DNA of 64,000 nt from Eledone cirrhosa (Eukaryota). Shown piece by piece: positions 8,605 to 62,524 of this stretch; position 1 is the stretch's first letter; each line of letters begins with the position of its first letter. The notes beneath the pieces were generated by a model. That model was not told the DNA's origin and ran no database searches. It worked only from the letters and a program-made list of their open reading frames with translations. Position numbers and translations under genes: made by a program. Where the stretch lies: contig OZ024755.1 of assembly GCA_964016885.1 (NCBI GenBank), positions 14,942,001-15,006,000 of the forward strand, written 5' to 3'.

Positions 8605-8650
<46 letters not shown>

Positions 8651-8654
<4 letters not shown>

Positions 8655-8843
8655 AAGTATGACCCCGACGGCAGAGCACAAGCCGTTTCGACGGCTATTT
8701 CTGGACTGAAATAGCCGTCGAAACGGCTTGAGCTCTACCGTCGGAGTCATACTTTTTCCTATTTCCAATAGAGTTTACTTACCCTAAGTATTGAGTACTC
8801 TGGTGCGTTATGGTCCATCTGGTTCCTTACCACAATTCCTTTG

Positions 8844-8847
<4 letters not shown>
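8651..8847 (+). mobile_element. TA-embedded fold-back element, family A (PLE terminal-repeat derived)
   Basis: Inverted arms 8651-8701 and 8708-8758, then a ~90 nt tail ending TTCCTTTGTTA. (TA)n lies on both sides. Confidence 0.8.
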
Positions 8848-8874
<27 letters not shown>

Positions 8875-8876
<2 letters not shown>

Positions 8877-11360: not shown

Positions 11361-11630
11361 GGGATGGAGGGTTAGATGGAGTAACGGGAAGGTATGTATA
11401 GAATGGGGGAGAAAATAAAGAGGAGGTTGTGTAGGTGGGGATTTTGGTGATGGTGATGATGATGATGATGAAGGTTGTGGCGATGATGATGATGATGATG
11501 GTGGTGATGATGATGATGATGATGCTAGTGGTGTTGGGGATGGAGGGTTAGATGGAGTAACGGGAAGGTATGTATAGAATGGGGGAGGAAATAAAGGGGA
11601 GGTTATGGAGGTGGGGATTTTGGTGATGGC

Positions 11631-11697
<67 letters not shown>

Positions 11698-11995
11698 CTA
11701 GTGGTGTTGGGGATGGAGGGTTAGATGGAGTAACGGGAAGGTATGTATAAAATGGGGGAGGAAATAAAGAGGTTGTTGGGGTGGGGATTTTGTTGATGGC
11801 GATGGTGATGAAGATGATGATGAAGATGATGATGATGATGATGGTGTTGAGGATGGAGGCTTGGGATAGAATGTTGGAGGGATTAACGGGTAGGTGTTTA
11901 GAAAATTGGGGACGAAATAAAGCATTGTTGGAGGCGGTTGTGGGGTCGGAGATTTAGGTGATGGTGATGATGATGATGGTAGTGGTGTTAGGGAT
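11361..11995. repeat. ~175-bp tandem repeat containing (GAT)n, three copies plus one degenerate
   Basis: GGATGGAGGGTTAGATGGAGTAACGGGAAGGTATGTATA recurs at ~11361, 11538 and 11711, with a diverged copy at ~11851. Confidence 0.9.
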
Positions 11996-15067: not shown

Positions 15068-15137
<70 letters not shown>

Positions 15138-15154
15138 TTATATATATATATATA

Positions 15155-15650
15155 GGAAAAAGTATAACCCGACGGCAGAGCTCAAGCCGTTTCGACGGCT
15201 ATTTCTGGACTAAATTAGAATTTTTAGCCTAGTGAATAAATAGGCGAAATTTTCAAGGGGTACTTCCTTATATGGGAAGATTGTAGTTGTCAAGAGGATT
15301 GGTTAAACTTGGTTGTAAACACAAATAAGTCTATCATGGCATTTGGTGGGAGGTAGGGGTGGCTGAACTTGCCTGTAGTACAATAGGGGAGTGAGTGGAG
15401 CTGTCAAGCGTTGAAAGTGATATGTATACAGCAGATTCTAAGGATAGTGTATGAAGTGGAGGAGGGAGGTTATAGAATAGGTAAATCGAATGAGAGTAGG
15501 AGACAATAAAAGATAATAGAAATAAATAAAAAAATATATAAAATTAGATAATGAGAAATGAATAAAAAAAAATCACAATGCTATCTTAAAATTACAGGTT
15601 AATAAGTTGATAATAGAAAAAAACTTGTAGGAATTGAGTAGTACCAGAAC
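15155..15650 (-). mobile_element. Family A element, longer non-folded copy
   Basis: Starts after (TA)n with GGAAAAAGTATAACCCGACGGCAGAGCTCAAGCCGTTTCGACGG and continues past the turn-around points of the other copies. The right boundary is approximate. Confidence 0.6.
15161..15265 (-). ncRNA. Hammerhead-like fold with U3-A8 core and 56-nt stem II domain (family A)
   Basis: Minus strand reads ACCCC-UUGAAAA-[56 nt]-GAAACGGC(UUGAGCUCU)GCCGUC-GGGU. The stem III and GUC half recurs in the copies at 8651, 16872, 42545 and 42752. Confidence 0.55.
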
Positions 15651-16817: not shown

Positions 16818-16861
<44 letters not shown>

Positions 16862-16871
16862 GTGTGTACAG

Positions 16872-17130
16872 AGAAAAAAGTATAACCCCGACGGCAGAGC
16901 TCCAGCCGTTTCGACGGCTATTTCTGGACTAAATTAGAATTTTTAGCCTGGTGAATAAAGTTTTGTTCACCTGGCTAAACATTCTAATTTAGTCCAGAAA
17001 TAGCCGTCGAAACGGCTTGAGCTCTGCCGTCGGGGTGATACTGTTTCCCATTTCCCACTCTACTACCCTAAGTATTGAGTACTCTGGTACGTTATGGTTC
17101 ATCTGGTTCCTTACCACAATTCCTTCGTTA
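16872..17130 (+). mobile_element. TA-embedded fold-back element, family A
   Basis: Arms of ~87 bp fold at ~16960, followed by the same tail ending TTCCTTCGTTA before (TA)n. Confidence 0.8.
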
Positions 17131-18796
<1,666 letters not shown>

Positions 18797-28552: not shown

Positions 28553-29032
28553 TTTCTACTTTAAGCAAAAGGCCATAGAAGGAGGAGAAAGTCGATTAAA
28601 TCGACCCAGTGCATTACTGGTACTTTACCTTATCGACCCCGTAAGGAGGAAAGGCAGACCTAACATCGGCGGAATTTGAAATTAGAACGTACAGGGCCGT
28701 AATTATATATCACAATGCATCGTGTCTGTTGCTGTACTGATACTGCCAACCGACCGCTCTTTTATAATAATTGTTTCTACTTTTTGCACAAGGCCAGCAA
28801 TTATCCAGTGCATTACTGGTACTTTATTTTATCGAGCCTGTAAGGTTGAAAGGAAAAGTTAACCTCGGCGGGATTTGAACTCAGTTCATAAAGCGACGTA
28901 ACTATGCTGCAAAGCATAGCATCCGACCCTCTACCGATACTGCCAAATAATAATAATAATAATGGTTCCTGATTTAGACACAAGGCCAGCAATTTTTCGA
29001 GGAGGAAAAGTCGATTAAATCGATCTCTGTGC
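28553..29032 (-). mobile_element. Three head-to-tail SINE copies, same family
   Basis: Copies at ~28553-28760, 28772-28945 and 28962-29032 (partial), separated by TAA-rich spacers. Confidence 0.8.
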
Positions 29033-31779: not shown

Positions 31780-33756
31780 TGTGTGTGTTAGGTGTGTAAC
31801 AACAGTTACGGCAGCAGTGTGCAGAGTGCAAATAAATTTAAGAGAGTCGAAATGAGTTTTGCAGCATATGTAAATAAAGTTTGTACGCATGCTGTTCCAC
31901 TCATGTTGATTATTTAAAATCTCTCTCTCTCTCTGTATATATATATATATGAAATGTACCTAACCCCAAACACTTAGAATACATTCTGTATATATATGAA
32001 ACATACCTAATGTAGAGTACATTTATTTTATTCAAAGCAATATCGTGTGTGTTGTAGACTAATTTCGCTACATCTGTGGTTTTTCAGAAATAAAAAAAAA
32101 ATACTGAGACTCTATTTCCCTGCAACAAGAAATAAAAAAATCGTAGGCAAAAATGCACCAGTGTTCTGCATTTAAAATGAGCATCGGGGAATTAGAAGCA
32201 AAGTGAGCAAAACTATAGAAATTAGTAAGAAAGTTCAGAACAGAGTAAAGAGGAGCATGTTTAAGAACCTTTGTTGGAAAATTAACCCCTTATGTGATGT
32301 CTTTCCTTCGTACTTGAACGGGTTTAACGAAGACCCCAGTTTTAGGCTTCAAGTCACTAAGAGTAGACTAAGATACAATCTGTGGGGAGACTAAGCCCCA
32401 GTTGCTACTAGCACGCATTTTCAGCTTATGAAGCTATAGCAATATTAAATAAAAGGCATTTATCACGAAAACAGTTCGTAACTTTGTCAATGAAACGAAA
32501 CTACGACCTGATGGTGAGCGCAACACTTTACACAGTAATCCACCCGACGTCAGTGTTCTGTTAATCTACTGGTTAAATTTGTTTATAAATATCTAATTAA
32601 TCAAATTATATCATTGTTTAATTAAACAGACTCGATCTCTGATTAGTTAAAATGAATTGTAGAGGGAAACAACGTAATGCTATATTTTTTTAAACATTTT
32701 TTCTATGTATGAGTTAATAATTTACAGCTATTTGTATGTCTTAATTTGAGTCAAGGAATTCTAATTATGGTTGTAATTTAATTAATATTCTAGTAGAGAT
32801 TAGAGGGTTCAATTAATTTAATGTTGAAACATTCCCATAATCAAACTGATAATTTGATTCCAATGTGATTGTCATCAGTGTAAATCGTGCTTACGGGCCT
32901 AAATAAAAAATATTGAAGTCTAAGTTATTTCATTTAAAAAGAAAAAGTTAAAATATCGAAATATTTGCAGGAGTATGTTGAAAAACCCAAAAATTTAGGT
33001 GCAAGAAAGTTGGGAGTGAATTACTTCAGTGGATCAATTAGTGAACACACACATATACATACACGTAACCACAAAAACAGATGCACACAACATAATATAA
33101 TTGACAACCCAGCAACAAAATTGTAATCTCAAATGGAATAAAACATGTATAGCATGTACATAAAACCTACAGTCTAATAAATGTGTCCGAACACGGAGAG
33201 CCGAACTCCCACTGTCATCGCCTCCGTCTCTTTTGCCCTCCGGATCACTCTATATTATGAGGAAATGGGGTCCCACGTGCTGGCCACCCCACGGCCCCGG
33301 CGGACAGAATAGAGAAGGCGTTTTCCCGGAGGATGGTGAGACAGATGCGCTAGGAGAGCCATTCCATTTCGCGAGGCTCACACCTGCGGCAAGCCAGCTC
33401 AGTGCCTATGGTGGTAAGTAGGGATGTCGACCTAAGGCGAAGGACACCAGAAGTTTCCACTGTTAGGGGAACGACCGCAAAACTGTTGGGGAGGGGCCGA
33501 TAGTTGTTGTACGTATATGGGTGTATGCAAACATTATATGAGTCGGACAGCTAGTGAGGTAATTTTGTTAACATCAGTGATTTGAAGGACTTTTAATATG
33601 AAAATTAATATTTACACATAATGAAAACGCAATCCTCATCCACATGAAATATATGTCGAAGAATAAACAAAGTAAACACAGTGATGCAAATACACAAAGT
33701 CTTGGGAATGAAGACAAAGGAAAAGGAAACAGGAAGCAAATTATATATATATATTT

Positions 33757-33897
33757 ATAACGAAGGAAGTGTGGTAAGCAACCAGGTGGACCATAACGCA
33801 CCAGATTAGATTACTCGATACTATACCCACTCTACTACCCAAAGTATCGAGTACTCTGGTGCTTATGGTCCACCTGGTTCCTTACCATACTTCTTTA
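33757..33897. mobile_element. Family A element folded within the tail segment
   Basis: AACGAAGGAAGTGTGGTAAG...CACCAGA is followed by the inverted TCTGGTGCTTATGGTCC...TTCCTTACCATACTTC. TA tracts flank it. Confidence 0.75.
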
Positions 33898-33917
33898 TAT
33901 ATATATATATATATATG

Positions 33918-33949
<32 letters not shown>

Positions 33950-34047
33950 ATTTGCTTCCTGTTTCATTTGTCTTCATTCCCAAGACTTTGTGTATGTGTA
34001 TCACTGTGTTTACTCTTCTCCTATATATATATATATATATATATATA

Positions 34048-39128: not shown

Positions 39129-39458
39129 CAAAACTCACTAATACATAACTCACTAATACAAAACTCACTAATACAAAACTCACTAATACAAAAGTCACTA
39201 ATACATAACTCACTAATACAAAACTCACTAATACATAACTCACTAATACAAAAGTCACTAATACAAAATTCACTAATACATAACTCACTAATACAAAACT
39301 CACTAATACATAACTCACTAATACATAACTCACTAATACAAAAGTCACTAATACAAAAGTCACTAATACATAACTCACTAATACAAAACTCACTAATACA
39401 TAACTCACTAATACAAAAGTCACTGATACAAAAGTCACTAATACAAAACTCACTAATA
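39129..39458. repeat. 15-bp minisatellite, 22 units (CA[A/T]AA[C/G]TCACTAATA)
   Basis: Exact 15-bp period over 330 bp, with three main unit variants. Confidence 0.95.
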
Positions 39459-40043
39459 CAAAACAAGGAATCAAAGTTGAATTAATGTCAATCACTCCAG
39501 CATATGCAGATAGGAATGTAAAATCTTGGCAGGGCAAACGAGTAATATTCGCGTCACTCATACATGAGATGGGGATCAGGTGATGCCAATTCCTGAAATT
39601 GAGATGCAACCATCATGTATGTATGAGTGTGTGTGAATTAGCTTGTAATATGTAAATCTGTGACCGTGTTCTAGATTATGCCTGGTATTCTGTGTATGTG
39701 TTTTGTATGAGCTCCATTTATTGTTATCTAAGATAGCAACAATGTAAATAAGTGCCTGATAGCTCCCCTACTGAGGGGACAGCCGACTCAAAATATCGGG
39801 TCTCATTTCTTATCTGTACAACACATTAGAGTTACAGAATAAAAACAAATTTAGCCTGTCTCTTTTGACACAAACACTTACGCACACACACACATATATA
39901 TAAGTGATATATATATGTATACATATATATATATATATATATGTGTATACATATATATATATATGTGTGTATACATATATATATATATATATATATATTT
40001 GTGTCTTTATATATATATATATATTTATATATATATTTATATA

Positions 40044-42544: not shown

Positions 42545-42545
<1 letters not shown>

Positions 42546-42735
42546 CTAAGGAAGTGTGGTAAGGAACCAGGTGGACAATAACGCCCCAGAGTACCCAATA
42601 CTTAGGGTAGTAGAGTGGGTAATAGGAAAAGGTATAAACCCGACGGCAGAGCTGAAGCCGTCTCGACGGCTATTTCTGGACAGAAATAGCCGTTGAAACG
42701 GCTTGAACTCTGCCGTCGGGGTTATACCTTTTCCT
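42545..42735 (-). mobile_element. TA-embedded fold-back element, family A
   Basis: Tail 42545-42622, then a palindrome 42623-42735, flanked by (TA)n. Confidence 0.8.
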
Positions 42736-42751
42736 ATATATATATATATAT

Positions 42752-42941
42752 AACGAAGGAAATGTGGTAAGGAACCAGGTGGACCATAACGCACCAAAGT
42801 ACTCAATACTTGAGGTAGTAGAGTGGGTAATAGGAACCAGTAAGACCCCGACAGCTGAGCTCAAGCCGTTTCGACGGCTAATTCTAGTCCAGAATTAGCC
42901 GTCGAAACGGCTTGAGCTCAGCTGTCGGGGTCTTACTGGTT

Positions 42942-42945
<4 letters not shown>
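42752..42945 (-). mobile_element. TA-embedded fold-back element, family A (second adjacent copy)
   Basis: Tail followed by a near-perfect palindrome, 42830-42945. Copy-specific variants are shared by both arms. Confidence 0.8.
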
Positions 42946-42984
<39 letters not shown>

Positions 42985-44804: not shown

Positions 44805-45913
44805 TGTGTGTGTAATAGAAAGAGAGGATGAGTGAATAAGGAAAAATTATCTATGTTATTTCTTCCGTAGTCTATATATTATTTCGTTCTCTTTTCCTGT
44901 TTCTCATATAGCACATCCGAACTGACGCCATCTAGTCAAATACACACACACAGACACACACATACACATACATACACACCCAAACACGCACATACATAAA
45001 AAACACGCAGAAACACACACCCACGCACATAGAGACACGAACACACACAGACATATAAACGCATACATACACAAAAGCACACACGCACCGACACAGATAC
45101 ACATACATGCATTCACAAAAACACACACATGCTCAAACACCCCACCACCACCACCACATTGACACCCTATACATACACACAAACACTTGCAAACTATCTC
45201 CTATAACATACAAACACACACACTTGCAAACCTTCTATACTGATAGTATAAATGTGTTTCTGAAATAAATACTAAAACTTTACTCGAAAGCGTGTTTGTG
45301 CGTGTGAGTGTGTGCGTGTGTTAATATTCACCAGTCACAGTGAGTTGTTTGGAATATCCAAGAGAGACGACCATAGAAGCAGATTATAGTGTAAGATAGT
45401 CTACTGCTGTCACACACTTTACAAGTATGAATCATCTATCGAACCGAATATATGAATATGATATAAGCACGGACGTGAGACTGCCAAGTCCTGGGCTGTA
45501 TTCCAACTCGAACAGACACTTGTTAACCGGGTTAACATTTCGAGAGGCAGAGGGTTAAGATCTCTGACATTTGTCAGTGCAATATAATGCTGCAGCATCC
45601 TTCTATAATAAGTGGAATAGTAGAAATATCTGTATCTTGTGACCACTCAGTCGGATTCAGTTTTAGTTTGGCTAAGCGTCATACTAATAAGACTTTGTGT
45701 TTTTGCCTCCCTGTGCATGTGTTGTCATTTCTACAATCATCATATATATATACCTACACACACATATATATATATTCATAAATATATATAAAGATGTAAA
45801 AGATACAGAAGCGAAACCCAATCCAAACCACACAGTGAGTGTGTTTTATTATTATTTCTGACATTATTATAACAACATGACCCATCTCAAGTATAACTAT
45901 ATATATATATAAT

Positions 45914-46063
45914 TGGTTCTACTTTTCCCACATGGCCAGAAATTACCCAGTGCATTACTGGTACTTTATTTTATCGACCCCGTCAGGATGAAAGGCAAAA
46001 TTAACCTCGGCGGGATTTGACCTCAGAATGGCAAAACTCTATGCGTCAAAGCATGTCGTCCGA
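45914..46063 (-). mobile_element. tRNA-derived SINE, same family
   Basis: GGTACTTTATTTTATCGACCCCGTCAGGATGAAAGGCAAAATTAACCTCGGCGGGATTTGA. Confidence 0.8.
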
Positions 46064-47710
46064 CCCTCTACCGATACTGCCAATTAATGATCGCGATTGT
46101 GGTGCAGAGTTGGTGTTAGTATCATTTTGGAGTTGCTGTATCTCCACTGCATCGTTACATATTTATATTGATGAGACTATTTTGTTACTCCTCTACAATA
46201 TATTCCGTGCTATTTCTTCTATCTAATACTTCAGCTCTTGTTCGCCGAGAAATCTAATAAAAAGGGAATGACGCAGACAAAAACGAAACAAAAAAAAAAT
46301 TAGTTATTTTGGACCAGTTGAAACAATTATGGAAAAACACGCACAAAATCAACCACACGTATGTAGCAACATTGACAAGCATGCACAGTAGAAGGTCGAA
46401 ATAGCAATAATAGAGTAAAAACGTTAACCAAGGGCAAGCTTCATATACCCTTGAACAATTATAAAAAATAAAATTCTCCAAGCAGACCATTAAATTATAT
46501 TAATATACTTTAAAATCAAGAAAGGAGTAGAATATCACACAAGTAATCTAAAACTTAAACAAGCCTCACAATAATCTATATGAAATAAAACCTCGTGAGT
46601 AATAAATGGCAATATAACAATAAGAAACTTCCAAATATTGCATATTCAAACTGGTTTAAACTTGAGATCCCTAATTATGTAATCCCGCCGAAAATCCTCA
46701 GAGTTCGGTAATAAATTTGCATCTATTTGCAATAATAACTAGTCAATTATATTAGTCTGAAAATATATACCGTGGCACTGATACATCAGTATTGTTAAGT
46801 TATGTCTGCAGGATGTAAACTACAGCGAAAAACATCTCCTCTTCAAACGAAATCCTTTGTAAGAATGAATTTCTTTACACTGAGTTACAGATGTTTCTGC
46901 ATAATTCTCGCTCTCAAAACAACAGTGAATAGTGATTGAGGCATTGCAAGACTAACCACAACATTATTCATATGAAGCAGTTATCTCGATAAATTCCACA
47001 ATTCAGGTGGTCAAATATTTTGTGTAATATGTTGTGAGCAACGATATATCAAATGTTAGCTGCATATAAGATACATATATAGATTAGTATTTTGTTAAGG
47101 GAACGTAACGGTCATCTAGCGTGTAGAATGTTGTCATTGTCACTGCTTTATGATTGCACAGTTCAGTGAAGTGTAATATTGAACCATGTAAACTTTCATA
47201 AATATATACAAGCCTTTGATATTAAGACAAATATACCAGATAATATCTAATTTGCCATTGTTCCATAGGGTTAGATTTGATGTTTGTGAAGATTTTATAT
47301 TGCATAGAGGTTGTGTGGAATGTTTGGTTTGTAGTCATTAAATATCATGAAAGCTACCCAACTATCGCCTAGGTCTCTATATCTAAAGTAATTGCTAGTT
47401 CTTTGGCCTTTTGGCTTTTGGAGATTGAGTTGACATGCTAGATTCTATGGTACCTGATTGTGAAGGAGTTAGATTAGTAAAATCGTTACGGTATCGGACT
47501 AATGCTCTGTAGAATTTGCTCCGGTTCTGCATATTCTGAGTAGATTATAAATCCACCAAGGTAAACTTTGGATTTCATCATTTTGAGATCAATAAAGTAA
47601 AGTACCAGTGGGGTGGATCTAATCAACTCCACTTATACCAAATCTTGGTCTACTGCCAATTTTAGATATCATTATATATGGCCGTTGCTGGTATTAATAT
47701 TAAAACTTAC

Positions 47711-47920
47711 GGCGGTGGATTGGCAGTATTGGTAGAGGGACGGACACCATGCTTTGCCGCATAGAGGTACCACTCTTTATGGTCTGAGTTCAAATCCCGC
47801 CGAGGTTAACTTTTCCTTTCATCCCTACGGCGTCGATAAAATGTAGTACCAGTCACGCACTGGGGTCGATTTAATCGACTTTCCCCAAAAATTGCTGGCC
47901 TTGTGTCTATATAAGAAACC
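47711..47920 (+). mobile_element. tRNA-derived SINE (octopus-type), near full length
   Basis: A-box-like TGGCAGTATTGG, B-box GAGTTCAAATCC and core TTTCATCC...GTCGATAAAAT..GTACCAG. Many copies occur in the window. Confidence 0.85.
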
Positions 47921-49066
47921 AACATAAAAACTTACTCTTTTCCGAAAGATGAAGATAACATGTTCCATCAGCTTGTTAGCATGGAGGAATTTGTACGTGT
48001 TGAAGTAATAACTGATTTCAGACAGCGGCACATGTGGAGTAGGCCTATCCAATTTCTGTTTCCTCATTAAAGAACAGCATTTCTATCGAAACGAATACTT
48101 CTGTTATTAGGTGATACAGGCCATGTGTATTCTCTTCGTAGACGCTAAGTAGGTTACAATAATTTCATTACTTTAGAGAATCGTTAGCTTTGTGGAGTGT
48201 GTACCATCTCTTTTTGTTCTAAACTCAAATCCTGTCGAAGTCAACAAAGTTATTTATGCTAGCAGAATCGTTAAAATCACTGTAGTTAATTTATCCAATT
48301 AACCACTGTCTAGAAATTTCTGACCTTGTACCTATTTTTAAAAGAATTATTACTAATATTACTACAGGTAGGACATTAACAGAATCATTAGAGCGCTGGT
48401 TTAACAAATAGCATTCAGGTACTCCTGTCGGTGTAATCGAATTTTCCCTCGTTCCAAATCATTGGCTTTGTGCCTAAAATTGAAACCATTATTACTATTC
48501 TTGCAGCTATCCATTACAACTCTAATTTCCGTTATTAGCATGCTGAGTTTAGACATCCCCATTCCATCCTTTCTCTCGGAAATGAAGTTAACAAAAGATA
48601 GGTCAGTTGGAAATATGTAAGCAACGAGAATAATATCCGCAAACTAAACCTTAACAATACAAGTTGATTGAGTCAATCTAATATATGACTGGTATTCGTT
48701 TTATAGACACGGGAAACAAAGACATGTATATATAAAAACGGATGATTTTTGCTGTTAAGAGTTAAGGATTTACATCTGTTTCCTATGCTATCACAAAATG
48801 TGTGAGGCCGAGAGCTCATCCAGCTTTCATAGATGTTAAATGACTGAGTGTAGAAAACGTCCCACTACATTCACTGATGCACATTTTCTGTTAACTGAGT
48901 TGATGCGACAATAGATGAAACGCGTTCCGTAACGGCATGATGTATCAGCTGGTCTGTAAAATGAAACAACGATCTCATGTTCGTTAACCAACCTCTCTAA
49001 CCGCTTCACTACGTGCCTTCATGTGTTAAGAGATGTAACACAACATGAATAAAACCATTGTTAATA

Positions 49067-49423
49067 ATGGTTTCTGATTTAGGCATAAGGCCAGCAATGT
49101 TTTTTGAGCGACGTCGATTAAATCGGGATTTGAGATCAGAAAGTAGAGGGTCGTAACTCTATGCCACTAAGTATACTGTCCGATTCTCTACCGATATTGC
49201 TAATACACTGAATAAGGGTTTCAGATCTAGGCATAAGGCCAACAATGTTTTTTGGAGGATGGGGGGTCGATTAAATCGACCCAAGTGCGTTACTGGTATT
49301 TTATTTTATCGACCCCATAAGGATGAAAGGCAAATCTAACTGCGCCGGGATTTGAAATCAGGGCGTAAAAGGTCGTAACTCTATGCCGCAAAGCATGTTG
49401 CCGATGCTCTACCGATACTGCTA
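49067..49423 (-). mobile_element. Two tandem SINE copies, same family
   Basis: Copies at 49067-49203 (internally deleted) and 49217-49423. Confidence 0.8.
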
Positions 49424-50263
49424 ATATATTGAATAATTATATTAATAATAATTATAATTATATGATAAAACTGATGGTACGAGGATGCTAATTTGATAAA
49501 TTTATACGAAATTAAATTTCTAGAGGGAAGTTGTGGTCAATTGGCTCCGGAACGTGACGGGAATCTATCCACTTTATATGCCTGGAGTGATAAATTGTGA
49601 GGTCAACCTCAACAGGATTTGAACTCAAGATATATAATGTTGTAAACTTCAATTTAATCCCACGCAGAAATATATCTGCCATCTTGCAATGGCATTATGT
49701 TAAAAATAATTACATCAATAGTAATAAAATATATCGCATGTGTAGTGAGTGTTTGTGAAAACCAACAACTGCCACAACCGCCATCGTCGCTGTCCTCATG
49801 TAGCAGCATCAAAATGTATCTATAGTAGAAACAGAATCTCTCATTAAAAAATAATATTGTAGCTCGATGGTATGCTCTCATACAAACATACATACATGCA
49901 TAGACACATATATACATACATACATACATTCATATGTGCATGTGCATACCTATACATACACAATAAATACAAGCATAGAGGAATGAATATATTCATGAAT
50001 AAATATATACATGCATGTATACATACATGAATACATATATACATGCTTGCATACATGCTTGCATACATACATGCTTGCACACATACATATATATACATAC
50101 ATACGCATATGATTACATATATGTTTGCACACATACATATATACATACATATATGAATACATACATACATACATACATACATACATACATACATTCAAAC
50201 ATACATAATTGAATATGTACATACATGATGGACACAAACATGCATACAAACATACATACAAAC

Positions 50264-58122: not shown

Positions 58123-58310
58123 GCCGGTAGATTGGCAGTATCAGTAAAGGGTGTGACCTTATGCTTTGTAGCATCGAGTTATGGCCCTTCACGCTCTGAG
58201 TTAAAATCCCGCTGAGGCTAACTTTGCCTTTAATCCTTACGGCGTCGATAAAATAAAGCACCAGTATTGCACTGGGATAATTGCTGGCCTTTTACCAAAA
58301 GTAGAAACAA
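58123..58310 (+). mobile_element. tRNA-derived SINE, same family
   Basis: Homologous to 47711-47920. Confidence 0.8.
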
Positions 58311-59583
58311 TTCTTATTCACGGAACGTGTCCACTAGTAAAAAAACATACTATGAAAATATAGTGAATATGACCATGTTATTTCCATGTATACATTTGTG
58401 TAAAATATGTAGGCATGGCTGAGTGTCTAAGAATTCTGATTTCGAATCATAAGGCCACGAATTCCATCCCACTGCATGGGATGTTTAATATAGTACATTA
58501 ATATAGTAGATTGCAGCCTTGTGAATGAAAATAAGTAGACGGGATATCTGGGTGTATTGTAACTAATACAAATATCAAGTCTTATCAGTCACATGCTGGG
58601 TCATGCTAATTGTGCTTATGTTAATATTGCATATGCTTAGGGAATGCTCAGTCACACACATGATTATTAAATGAGCAGATTATTTCGTTGATCGAACAAT
58701 TAGAAGTATCGTCAAAACCGACGGAGTTCCGTTACTTAAAACTTAGTTGTATTACATACGATGGAAATGGAGGAAATATGATGGAGGTATCTCAACGTGG
58801 GAATATTGCAGTTATATAAATTGATTGTCACTTCCAGGAAAACACTACATTCTTTCCTCAGCAATAGTTAATATCTACCCCCCCCCCCCCCCACACCCCT
58901 TTCATCCTCCTCCTCCTACTACTACTATAGCTGTTGCTACTACTAACAACAACAAGAATATTACTACGACAATTACACTCAACTCTCCACCTACTACTAC
59001 TACTACTACTTCAACGAAGTTGTTGCCTCTAACGCTATAATTATTTCATGATTTTATGATAATATTTAATATAAACACCAATTAATTAGAACGTCAATAT
59101 TTAAGTGTAAGGGAATGTAGTTAGTATACAGTGACTCCGGTAAAGCCGTGGTGTAATGACACGTTAAATAAGCCTAATTTTCTTAGATATTAGACGAATA
59201 TTTTTTTATTCACTAACAAATTCATAAATCCGCCCAAGTCAAATAAAGGAAGAAGTAAAAGCGCAATGATAAGCCGCAACCAATAATTTTTATGATCCAC
59301 AGAAAAACGTAACATTTCTATTTTAATTGGATATATGAATTTGTTTACATTGGTGTGATGTTGGTTATAGTCAATATTATTCGAAAAGCATAGGCAGTGC
59401 ACGTTTTAGTTTTGTTTGATAAGAGAAATGATGTAACAAAGTTATTAGCTGACATTTTATATTTATAATGAATGACAAGTTAACATTTTAAACAAATTTC
59501 ACCCCGTGGAAATTCTACCGTTTCAGTTAATAAACAACCGCCAAGTATTGAAAATCAGAAAATCAATGTTAAATTTAAAACAT

Positions 59584-61911: not shown

Positions 61912-61951
<40 letters not shown>

Positions 61952-61954
<3 letters not shown>

Positions 61955-62484
61955 AGAGTATTGAAGTTTGCTTGAAGCATTGTGGAATAATAAGTAAATA
62001 TCTTTAAGTCGTTTGGAAGCCTCGACAATGCAAATGGGTAAATCTCCGGGTAACAAGATCCGGTGGTGGAGAGAGAGATGTAAGTGGGTGTACGTTGAGA
62101 TGCGTGGTGTGTATAAGATATGTAAGATGTGTAGAAGAATGAAGGGAAGAGTATAAAGGATAAAATAAAAATAAAAATAACAACACAAGAGAGAGTTACC
62201 TTGGGAGAGATTTAATAGTCCCTATTAATAGGGACTATTAAATAGGGACTATTAAATAGGGACTATTAAATAGGGACTATTAAATAGGGACTATTAAATC
62301 TCTCCCAAGGTAACTCTCTCTTGTATTTTTATTTTTATTTTATCCTTTATACTCTTCCCTTCATTCTTCTACACATCTTACACATCTCAACGTACACCCA
62401 CTTACATCTCTCTCTCCACCACCGGATCTTGTTACCCGGATATTTACCCATTTGCATTGTCGAGGCTTCCAAACGACTTAAAGA

Positions 62485-62490
<6 letters not shown>
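61952..62490. mobile_element. TA-embedded fold-back element, family D
   Basis: Tail 61952-61994 and inverted arms 61995-62226 and 62283-62490, with a central 14-bp tandem. (TA)n lies on both sides. Confidence 0.8.
62227..62296 (+). repeat. Five perfect copies of AATAGGGACTATTA at the fold-back apex
   Basis: Direct reading. The last unit continues into the right arm, and the left arm ends in the reverse complement of the unit. Confidence 0.95.

Positions 62491-62524
<34 letters not shown>

What the first reader, a model, noticed from the sequence alone, without database searches (positions are those of the whole stretch)
62227..62296. Telomerase-like repetition of a 14-nt unit at a fold-back apex
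Seen: the left arm ends ...TAATAGTCCCTATT and turns with no spacer into five perfect AATAGGGACTATTA units, the last continuing as the right arm. Each unit is itself a mini-hairpin (AATAG-GGA-CTATT). Established: PLE RTs are the closest relatives of telomerase RT. Inference: the RT copied a short template segment repeatedly (realign and extend) at the turn-around point before completing the second arm.
Basis: partly seen in the sequence, partly recalled or inferred. Interest (0 to 1): 0.75.

Follow-up and report, generated by a model that had tools for sequence, protein, structure and literature searches.

The report
Stutter scar at Penelope head-to-head joint
Five exact copies of a 14-letter piece sit where two halves of a Penelope-like jumping gene meet back to back; smaller stutters occur at sister junctions too, so this is likely an unusually long repair scar left while the two halves were joined, and probably not telomerase-like copying from RNA.

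Summary
The array is real. Five identical 14-nt units lie at 62227-62296, unique in the genome, absent from 29 other family loci, and present in read-derived contigs at a depth fitting 4-5 units. The arms are the 3' end of a Penelope-like element (RT plus GIY-YIG). The locus is probably not a fold-back: 140 of 145 head-to-head insertions pair one tailed arm with one tail-less arm, and in 44 of 140 neither arm contains the other, which points to two separately primed cDNAs. Re-copied segments occur at 13 of 168 other apices and 3 of 58 other 5' ends, so they are not apex-specific. Several units contain target (TA)n, the opposite arm or foreign bases, which an RNA template cannot supply; one such array has three copies. 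Best reading (0.6): iterative DNA-templated re-priming during end joining, Pol theta-like. RNA-templated reiteration by the RT: 0.2. Later slippage expansion: 0.17. The scan noted a similar two-copy stutter in another genome (e1-9320090). Interest is modest; the arm-pairing rule is the more useful by-product.

The parts
61914..61951 (.). (AT)n target microsatellite, left flank
61952..62225 (-). Left arm: 3' end of the PLE in antisense, carrying the ~40-nt tail
   Evidence: matches reference copy L018 positions q1180 to the tail end
61952..61993 (-). Tail; in a longer copy it runs on into the 5' coding region
   Evidence: L040
62226..62227 (.). Junction bases not collinear with the family; centre of the palindrome
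62227..62296 (+). Five identical 14-nt units (four extra plus the family's own copy); period-14 run ends at 62299
62284..62490 (+). Right arm: PLE 3' end in sense, tail-less
62323..62324 (+). Site of a 6-nt deletion in the right arm relative to the left
62387..62388 (+). Site of an 18-nt deletion in the right arm between two CATCT repeats
62491..62521 (.). (AT)n target microsatellite, right flank

Best explanation
The array is five identical 14-nt units at the joint of a head-to-head Penelope-like insertion, and it is likely a scar of end joining: two cDNAs were probably primed separately from the two cut target strands, and a DNA-templated polymerase (likely host Pol theta) would have annealed, extended about 14 nt, let go and re-annealed four times before the joint was sealed. 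Shown: the element, the arm anatomy, the uniqueness and reality of the array, and the family-wide junction pattern. Inferred step 1: the PLE protein cuts both strands of an (AT)n target and starts one cDNA at each of its two start sites, giving one tailed and one tail-less arm from one source. Inferred step 2: the two 3' ends have the same polarity and cannot pair, except through the ATAG/CTAT mini-inverted repeat, which gives a 4-nt hold by snap-back or in trans. Inferred step 3: extension makes an end (CTATTAAAT) that matches the joint at 8 of 9 bases, or the upstream family sequence at 4 of 5, so it re-primes 14 nt back, repeatedly. The same slip-prone synthesis may have made the two deletions in that arm. 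The enzyme is not shown; the PLE RT acting on DNA would leave the same scar.
For: Dual priming: 140 of 145 classifiable apices have exactly one tailed arm; in 44 of 140 the tail-less arm reaches more than 15 nt further 5'. Arms share subfamily alleles at 908 of 981 site comparisons against 565 expected, and differ by 2.4% against 5.0% between insertions; 2.2% in the non-nested set. PAc cuts and extends both strands and has two RT start sites that flank the tail (PMC11167929, main text read). Junction enrichment: 13 private re-copied runs in 11,434 nt of junction zone, focal excluded, against 5 in 67,844 nt of arms; 0 in 50 continuous copies. DNA template needed: 5 of 14 units are 6-13 nt longer than any family-contiguous piece (L068, L155, L165, L168, L176). 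4 of 7 non-inverted cases have target (TA)n between the copies (L285, L292, L299, L300). L287's unit spans a deletion joint. L294 has three copies of a unit built from both orientations. Two independent insertions carry the same 18-nt duplication (L280, L281), so local sequence drives the outcome. Iterative cis, trans and snap-back synthesis is the described Pol theta/SD-MMEJ signature (passages of PMC2895639, PMC5728401, PMC4912351). The host has a Pol theta gene. The insertion is young (1 substitution in 207 aligned arm bases) and is the only one of 122 arm pairs with two indels of 5 nt or more, which fits one slip-prone synthesis.
Against: No enzyme is identified. The focal unit is a contiguous family segment with a 2-nt alignment, as are 6 other of the 14 units (0-4 nt), and 2 more are borderline, so RNA could have templated them. 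Re-copying concentrates at the apparent RNA 5' boundary: 8 of 36 apices there against 0 of 48 further 3'. Both focal arms stop at the same template base. Read on the cDNA strand, several cases end in a partial last cycle with microhomology to the other arm, which suits growth of the cDNA end itself (my reading). Pol theta insertions are described as imperfect repeats of 5-8 nt (PMC2895639), whereas these four are perfect 14-mers. Apex-spanning duplications could be later repair of a cruciform and not integration scars. Apices were collected with exact anchors and gaps up to 110 nt, so rates are biased towards young, short cases.
Confidence: 0.6

Rival explanations
1. Telomerase-like reiteration: the PLE RT making the tail-less cDNA reached a template boundary, realigned its 3' AT on the RNA 14 nt back four times, then joined the other cDNA through ATAG/CTAT.
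For: The unit plus 2 nt is contiguous family sequence. Both arms end at one template base. Two forward skips lie in the same arm. Duplications are enriched at the apparent RNA 5' end (8 of 36 versus 0 of 48). [quoted passage not shown]
Against: Only a 2-nt alignment exists on RNA, against 8 of 9 on the joined DNA. This position is no hot spot of 5' ends (5 of 61 in q1175-1191 against 15 of 61 in q1062-1078). Many sister units cannot come from RNA. No other perfect array of three or more units longer than 5 nt with an RNA-compatible unit was seen in 168 apices. The PAc paper has no hit for 'slippage' or 'repeat addition'.
Confidence: 0.2
2. One duplication arose at or after joining, between the CTATTAA direct repeats that the palindrome creates, and ordinary hairpin-assisted replication slippage later raised it to five units.
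For: The first period is 13 nt and the later four junctions are identical 14-nt steps, as expected if one junction was amplified. The array folds out of register (-9.2 kcal/mol; 0 of 200 shuffles as good). The depth ratio of 2.66-2.88 lies between a 4/5 heterozygote and 5/5. The window has other minisatellites.
Against: The insertion is young. None of the other junction duplications with a period of 9 nt or more in the 169-apex set reached three copies. The two extra deletions in the same arm suggest one faulty synthesis.
Confidence: 0.17
3. Assembly or sequencing artefact at a palindrome.
For: Hairpins and (AT)n flanks trouble assemblers; no long read or contig spans the locus.
Against: Apex and unit contigs are present without differences in three runs at the expected depth ratio.
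Confidence: 0.02

Closest known systems
Head-to-head (inverted) insertions of endonuclease-bearing Penelope-like elements (PMC8557442, PMC3846280; passages read)
   Same: RT plus C-terminal GIY-YIG ORF, 5'-truncated inverted copy, 30-40 nt tail on one end only, microsatellite targets, palindromes at the inverted junction.
   Different: The passages read describe no tandem array at the junction. PMC3846280 reads the inversion as self-priming on an antisense template; the non-nested arm pairs here fit two primings better.
PAc (Poseidon of Anolis) in vitro TPRT (PMC11167929; main text read)
   Same: Cleavage and extension of both strands, two RT start sites bounding the tail, AT-rich targets: what dual priming needs.
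   Different: It does not treat inverted insertions, 5' junctions or repeat addition.
Pol theta / SD-MMEJ templated insertions (PMC2895639, PMC5728401, PMC4912351; passages read)
   Same: Junction-limited direct and inverted re-copies, snap-back, trans priming, several rounds, 1-4 nt microhomology (37 of 112 junctions), context-driven recurrence.
   Different: Reported repeats are mostly short and imperfect; four perfect 14-mers is extreme. Genetic dependence is untested here.
5' junctions of non-LTR elements: R2 cDNA snap-back (PMC11371274, passages) and L1 twin priming (bioRxiv 10.1101/2024.12.14.628481, passages)
   Same: The cDNA 3' end primes extra DNA-templated synthesis before joining; both target ends can be primed.
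   Different: L1 twin priming copies two different parts of the RNA; here both arms copy the same 3' region from two start sites about 40 nt apart.
Telomerase repeat addition (features recalled); DRT2 and DRT10 repeat synthesis (abstract starts only)
   Same: Perfect tandem copies of one short template segment with a short alignment overlap.
   Different: No fixed template segment or boundary, units differ by locus, usually two copies, and many units need DNA.

Membership tests
EN+ Penelope-like element | Single ORF with RT and C-terminal GIY-YIG | tested here: met
   L036:1521-3206:- RVT_1 E=8.5e-11; GIY-YIG E=1.7e-4, 22.3 bits, just under the 22.6 cut-off; both domains in 2 of 4 proteins scanned, RT in 3 of 4
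EN+ Penelope-like element | pLTR with optional 30-40 nt tail on one end; inverted 5'-truncated copies | tested here: met
EN+ Penelope-like element | Hammerhead ribozyme in the pLTR | tested here: inconclusive
   No Rfam hammerhead hit in 3 loci; a hammerhead-like motif with two core changes seen by eye, not the minimum-energy fold
EN+ Penelope-like element | Clade by RT phylogeny | not tested
   No tree built; a Cys cluster before the EN hints at Neptune or Nematis (PMC8557442 passage)
Telomerase-like repeat addition | Fixed RNA template segment reused across events (feature recalled) | tested here: not met
   Units differ by locus (periods 5-27 nt); 6 loci genome-wide duplicate this segment, with periods of 14-22 nt
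Telomerase-like repeat addition | Unit wholly templated by the RNA, with an alignment overlap | tested here: inconclusive
   Met at this locus (2-nt overlap); 7 of 14 compatible, 2 borderline, 5 not
Telomerase-like repeat addition | Template boundary at the end of the unit | tested here: inconclusive
   Both arms stop here, but the site is no hot spot of 5' ends
Telomerase-like repeat addition | Repeat addition by the purified RT on RNA | not testable with these tools
   Needs biochemistry
Pol theta / SD-MMEJ templated insertion | Insertions copied from DNA next to the joint, direct and inverted, confined to joints | tested here: met
Pol theta / SD-MMEJ templated insertion | Host encodes Pol theta | tested here: met
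   Two exons on G000:C23 hit Pol theta structures best (E 3.9e-20 and 1.4e-27); gene completeness not checked
Pol theta / SD-MMEJ templated insertion | Genetic dependence on POLQ | not testable with these tools
   Needs knockout cells
Fold-back inversion (second arm copied from the first) | One arm contains the other | tested here: not met
   Holds at this locus, but fails in 44 of 140 family pairs; fold-back does not predict the one-tail rule that this locus also obeys

The most novel reading that the evidence does not exclude
The RT of an endonuclease-bearing Penelope-like element performs true repeat addition in vivo: at a stalled or ended RNA template it realigns on a 2-nt overlap and re-copies 14 nt, four times here, leaving a genomic fossil of proto-telomerase activity.
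Probability: 0.2. Interest if true: 0.75.

Novelty: new member of a known kind. Interest (0 to 1): 0.3.

Why it matters
As a joining scar it is ordinary, though it is the longest among 169 apices surveyed and shows how a minisatellite seed can arise in a single insertion. The survey matters more. How PLEs form inverted insertions is called undefined in PMC8557442. The one-tail/one-no-tail rule with non-nested arms from one source links the two in vitro start sites to priming from both target ends, which the PAc system can test directly. That the tail is often on one end only is in print. I did not find the non-nesting argument in three paper searches, a limited check of an open-access library. 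If the RNA-templated reading were right, it would be in vivo evidence of repeat addition by telomerase's closest retroelement relatives.

Tried and rejected
Array as part of the family sequence: rejected. Repeated hairpin fold-backs: rejected for this locus, since the loops would alternate GGA/TCC and all five read GGA; L056, L051 and L176 do look like multiple folds. Hammerhead cleavage as the boundary of the unit: no Rfam hit, no supporting fold, the predicted site lies 3 nt from the arm ends, and only 5 arm ends fall there, against 2-8 at neighbouring positions. Source of the foreign inserts in L068 and L155: not found within about 1.5 kb of flank. Independent individuals: RAD-seq run X21 and run X1 gave no cover of the array, so no test. 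The control search for target-adjacent 5' ends returned mostly overlapping matches and gave only about 23 places, all on one contig. The set of 58 other 5' ends is noisy: by eye about 7 are chaining breaks inside copies and about 5 are short unrecognised apices. The PLE protein has no PDB sequence match. Rows dropped: 12 duplicates and 5 mis-paired or reference-edge pairs of 129, 24 of 169 apices had an arm ending at neither start site and were left out of the tail count, 47 of 169 pairs overlapped by under 80 nt. No supplements were read; those of PMC11167929 may show junction products.

Full report
Observation. The window holds five identical AATAGGGACTATTA units at 62227-62296, right of a perfect palindrome with 17-nt arms centred at 62226/62227. 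The period-14 run spans 62227-62299. The flanking arms, 61952-62225 and 62284-62490, are inverted copies set between two (AT)n tracts. They differ by one aligned substitution and by deletions of 6 and 18 nt in the right arm, and only the left arm has a 40-nt extension. The unit folds weakly alone (-0.6 kcal/mol) and the array folds out of register (-9.2).

Reality. The exact dimer occurs only here in a genome of 3.0 Gb. Read-derived contigs of one sample, three runs, hold the apex (45 nt; depth 11, 10.3, 7.69) and a cyclic 44-nt unit contig (28.7, 29, 19.5) without differences. The ratio, 2.66 against the apex and 2.88 against unique flank, fits 4-5 units; 3.07 is expected for five. The sample may be the assembled animal, and no long read was available.

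Family. The right arm found 43 matches among the 40 best of 1,302 candidates; an exact 43-nt 3' motif occurs 1,114 times. Long copies encode RT plus a C-terminal GIY-YIG domain in one frame, so this is an endonuclease-bearing Penelope-like element, and the window holds only its last 210-270 nt twice. None of 29 other loci has the unit in tandem. Copies end at one of two sites about 40 nt apart; in a longer copy the extension runs into the 5' coding region. This is the PLE tail. In the Anolis element the tail lies between two RT start sites, and the protein cuts and extends both target strands (PMC11167929, main text read). Positions below (q) refer to copy L018.

How the two arms arise. I collected head-to-head junctions with five anchored patterns and from consecutive family sites on one contig: 279 loci, 169 distinct apices. 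Of 145 whose arms both end at a start site, 140 pair one tailed with one tail-less arm; single copies split 32 to 24. In 44 of the 140 the tail-less arm reaches more than 15 nt further 5', so neither arm can be a copy of the other. Yet arms share subfamily alleles (908 of 981, 565 expected) and differ by 2.4% against 5.0% between insertions, also in the non-nested set. I infer two cDNAs from one source, primed from the two target ends and joined end to end. This locus obeys the rule. Its own arms are nested, so a fold-back is not excluded here by nesting alone. PMC3846280 (passages) proposed self-priming on an antisense template; PMC8557442 (passages) calls the process undefined.

Re-copying at junctions. 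A fixed rule (period 4-45, run of 8 nt or more, found at no other locus) flagged 14 of 169 apices including this one, 3 of 58 other 5' ends, and 5 runs in 67,844 nt of arms, all in the family's own simple repeats; 0 in 50 continuous copies. The enrichment over arms is about 15-fold; apices and other 5' ends do not differ (p=0.77), though the second set is noisy. Two genome-wide searches for direct duplications gave 21 loci besides this one: 12 apices, 7 non-inverted junctions, 1 internal deletion, 1 unclear. This array is the longest seen.

RNA or DNA template. Of the 14 units, 7 are contiguous family sequence with 0-4 nt overlap (this one has 2), 2 are borderline, and 5 hold 6-13 nt that the family lacks in that order. 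L165 and L168 span the apex; L068 repeats a foreign insert. Four non-inverted cases have target (TA)n between the copies, L287's unit spans a deletion joint, and L294 has three copies of a unit made of both orientations. These need DNA templates and show that several rounds occur on DNA. L280 and L281 are independent insertions with the same 18-nt duplication. Junctions also show 1-4 nt microhomology (37 of 112) and snap-backs. This matches the cis, trans and iterative synthesis described for Pol theta and SD-MMEJ (passages of PMC2895639, PMC5728401, PMC4912351) and cDNA snap-back at R2 5' junctions (PMC11371274 passages). The host has a Pol theta gene.

This locus. By inspection, the end CTATTAAAT matches the joint at 8 of 9 bases and the upstream family sequence at 4 of 5, whereas realignment on RNA has only AT. 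The insertion is young, and it is the only one of 122 arm pairs with two indels of 5 nt or more; 31 comparably young pairs have three such indels, two of them here. One slip-prone synthesis explains all six slips, but it does not say which strand or which enzyme.

Against my reading. Both arms stop at one template base. Duplications cluster where 5' ends cluster, at q1055-1095 (8 of 36 apices, against 0 of 48 beyond q1225). Several two-copy cases read most simply as a cDNA end re-copying a sense template. Four perfect 14-mers exceed what the Pol theta passages describe. A mouse-telomerase-like 2-nt overlap (recalled) would suffice in principle. The DNA-only cases could be later repairs. Later slippage also fits the 13-then-14 spacing. 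Hence 0.6 for DNA-templated re-priming at integration, 0.2 for RNA-templated reiteration, 0.17 for later expansion, 0.02 for artefact.

Verdict. A real, extreme member of a common class of PLE 5'-joint scars. It works like realign-and-extend, but it fails the fixed-template test for telomerase-like synthesis and does not need RNA. An earlier scan note on another genome reached a similar view for a two-copy case (e1-9320090, seen after my reading was recorded; not checked on its DNA). Interest 0.3.

Noticed in passing
L018:1383-1399 (q1062-1078); many loci: Hot spot of 5' ends at GATATTC: 15 of 61 ends between q1000 and q1400 in the unanchored sample fall in this 17-nt window. Probably the pLTR start or transcription start (inference).
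   Followed up: partly
L039:6255-6310: Hammerhead-like motif just upstream of the unit in full copies: helix II with a GNRA-type loop, GAAA, palindromic helix III, but two core changes. No Rfam hit, not the minimum-energy fold.
   Followed up: partly
L294 (G000:C4:273998450): Three-copy array of a 21-nt unit built from both arm orientations at an apex.
   Followed up: yes
L280 and L281 (G000:C1:13716969 and 15746934): Identical 18-nt apex duplication in two independent insertions with the tail on opposite arms.
   Followed up: yes
P0001, about residues 450-463: Cysteine cluster between RT and GIY-YIG, suggesting a Neptune- or Nematis-type PLE; no tree built.
   Followed up: no
window 42545-42946; also about 8632-8876, 15100-15240, 16820-17239, 33742-33950: A second short repeat family inserted in (AT)n tracts, about 190 nt, with a long internal hairpin near one end; two copies in tandem at 42545-42946.
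   Followed up: no
window 39129-39464: 15-nt minisatellite, 22.4 copies, 92% matches; no match to this PLE arm.
   Followed up: partly
window 11361-11855: 176-nt tandem repeat, 2.9 copies, with internal (GAT)n.
   Followed up: no
window about 28584-29032, 45904-46091, 47713-47920, 49063-49441, 58125-58317: A third dispersed repeat family, 75-85% identity.
   Followed up: no
window 62306-62315: Splice-donor-like CAAG/GTAACT in the arm, upstream of a pyrimidine-rich stretch; a pLTR intron is possible but untested.
   Followed up: no
G000:C23:21159745-21166969: Exons of a Pol theta gene.
   Followed up: partly
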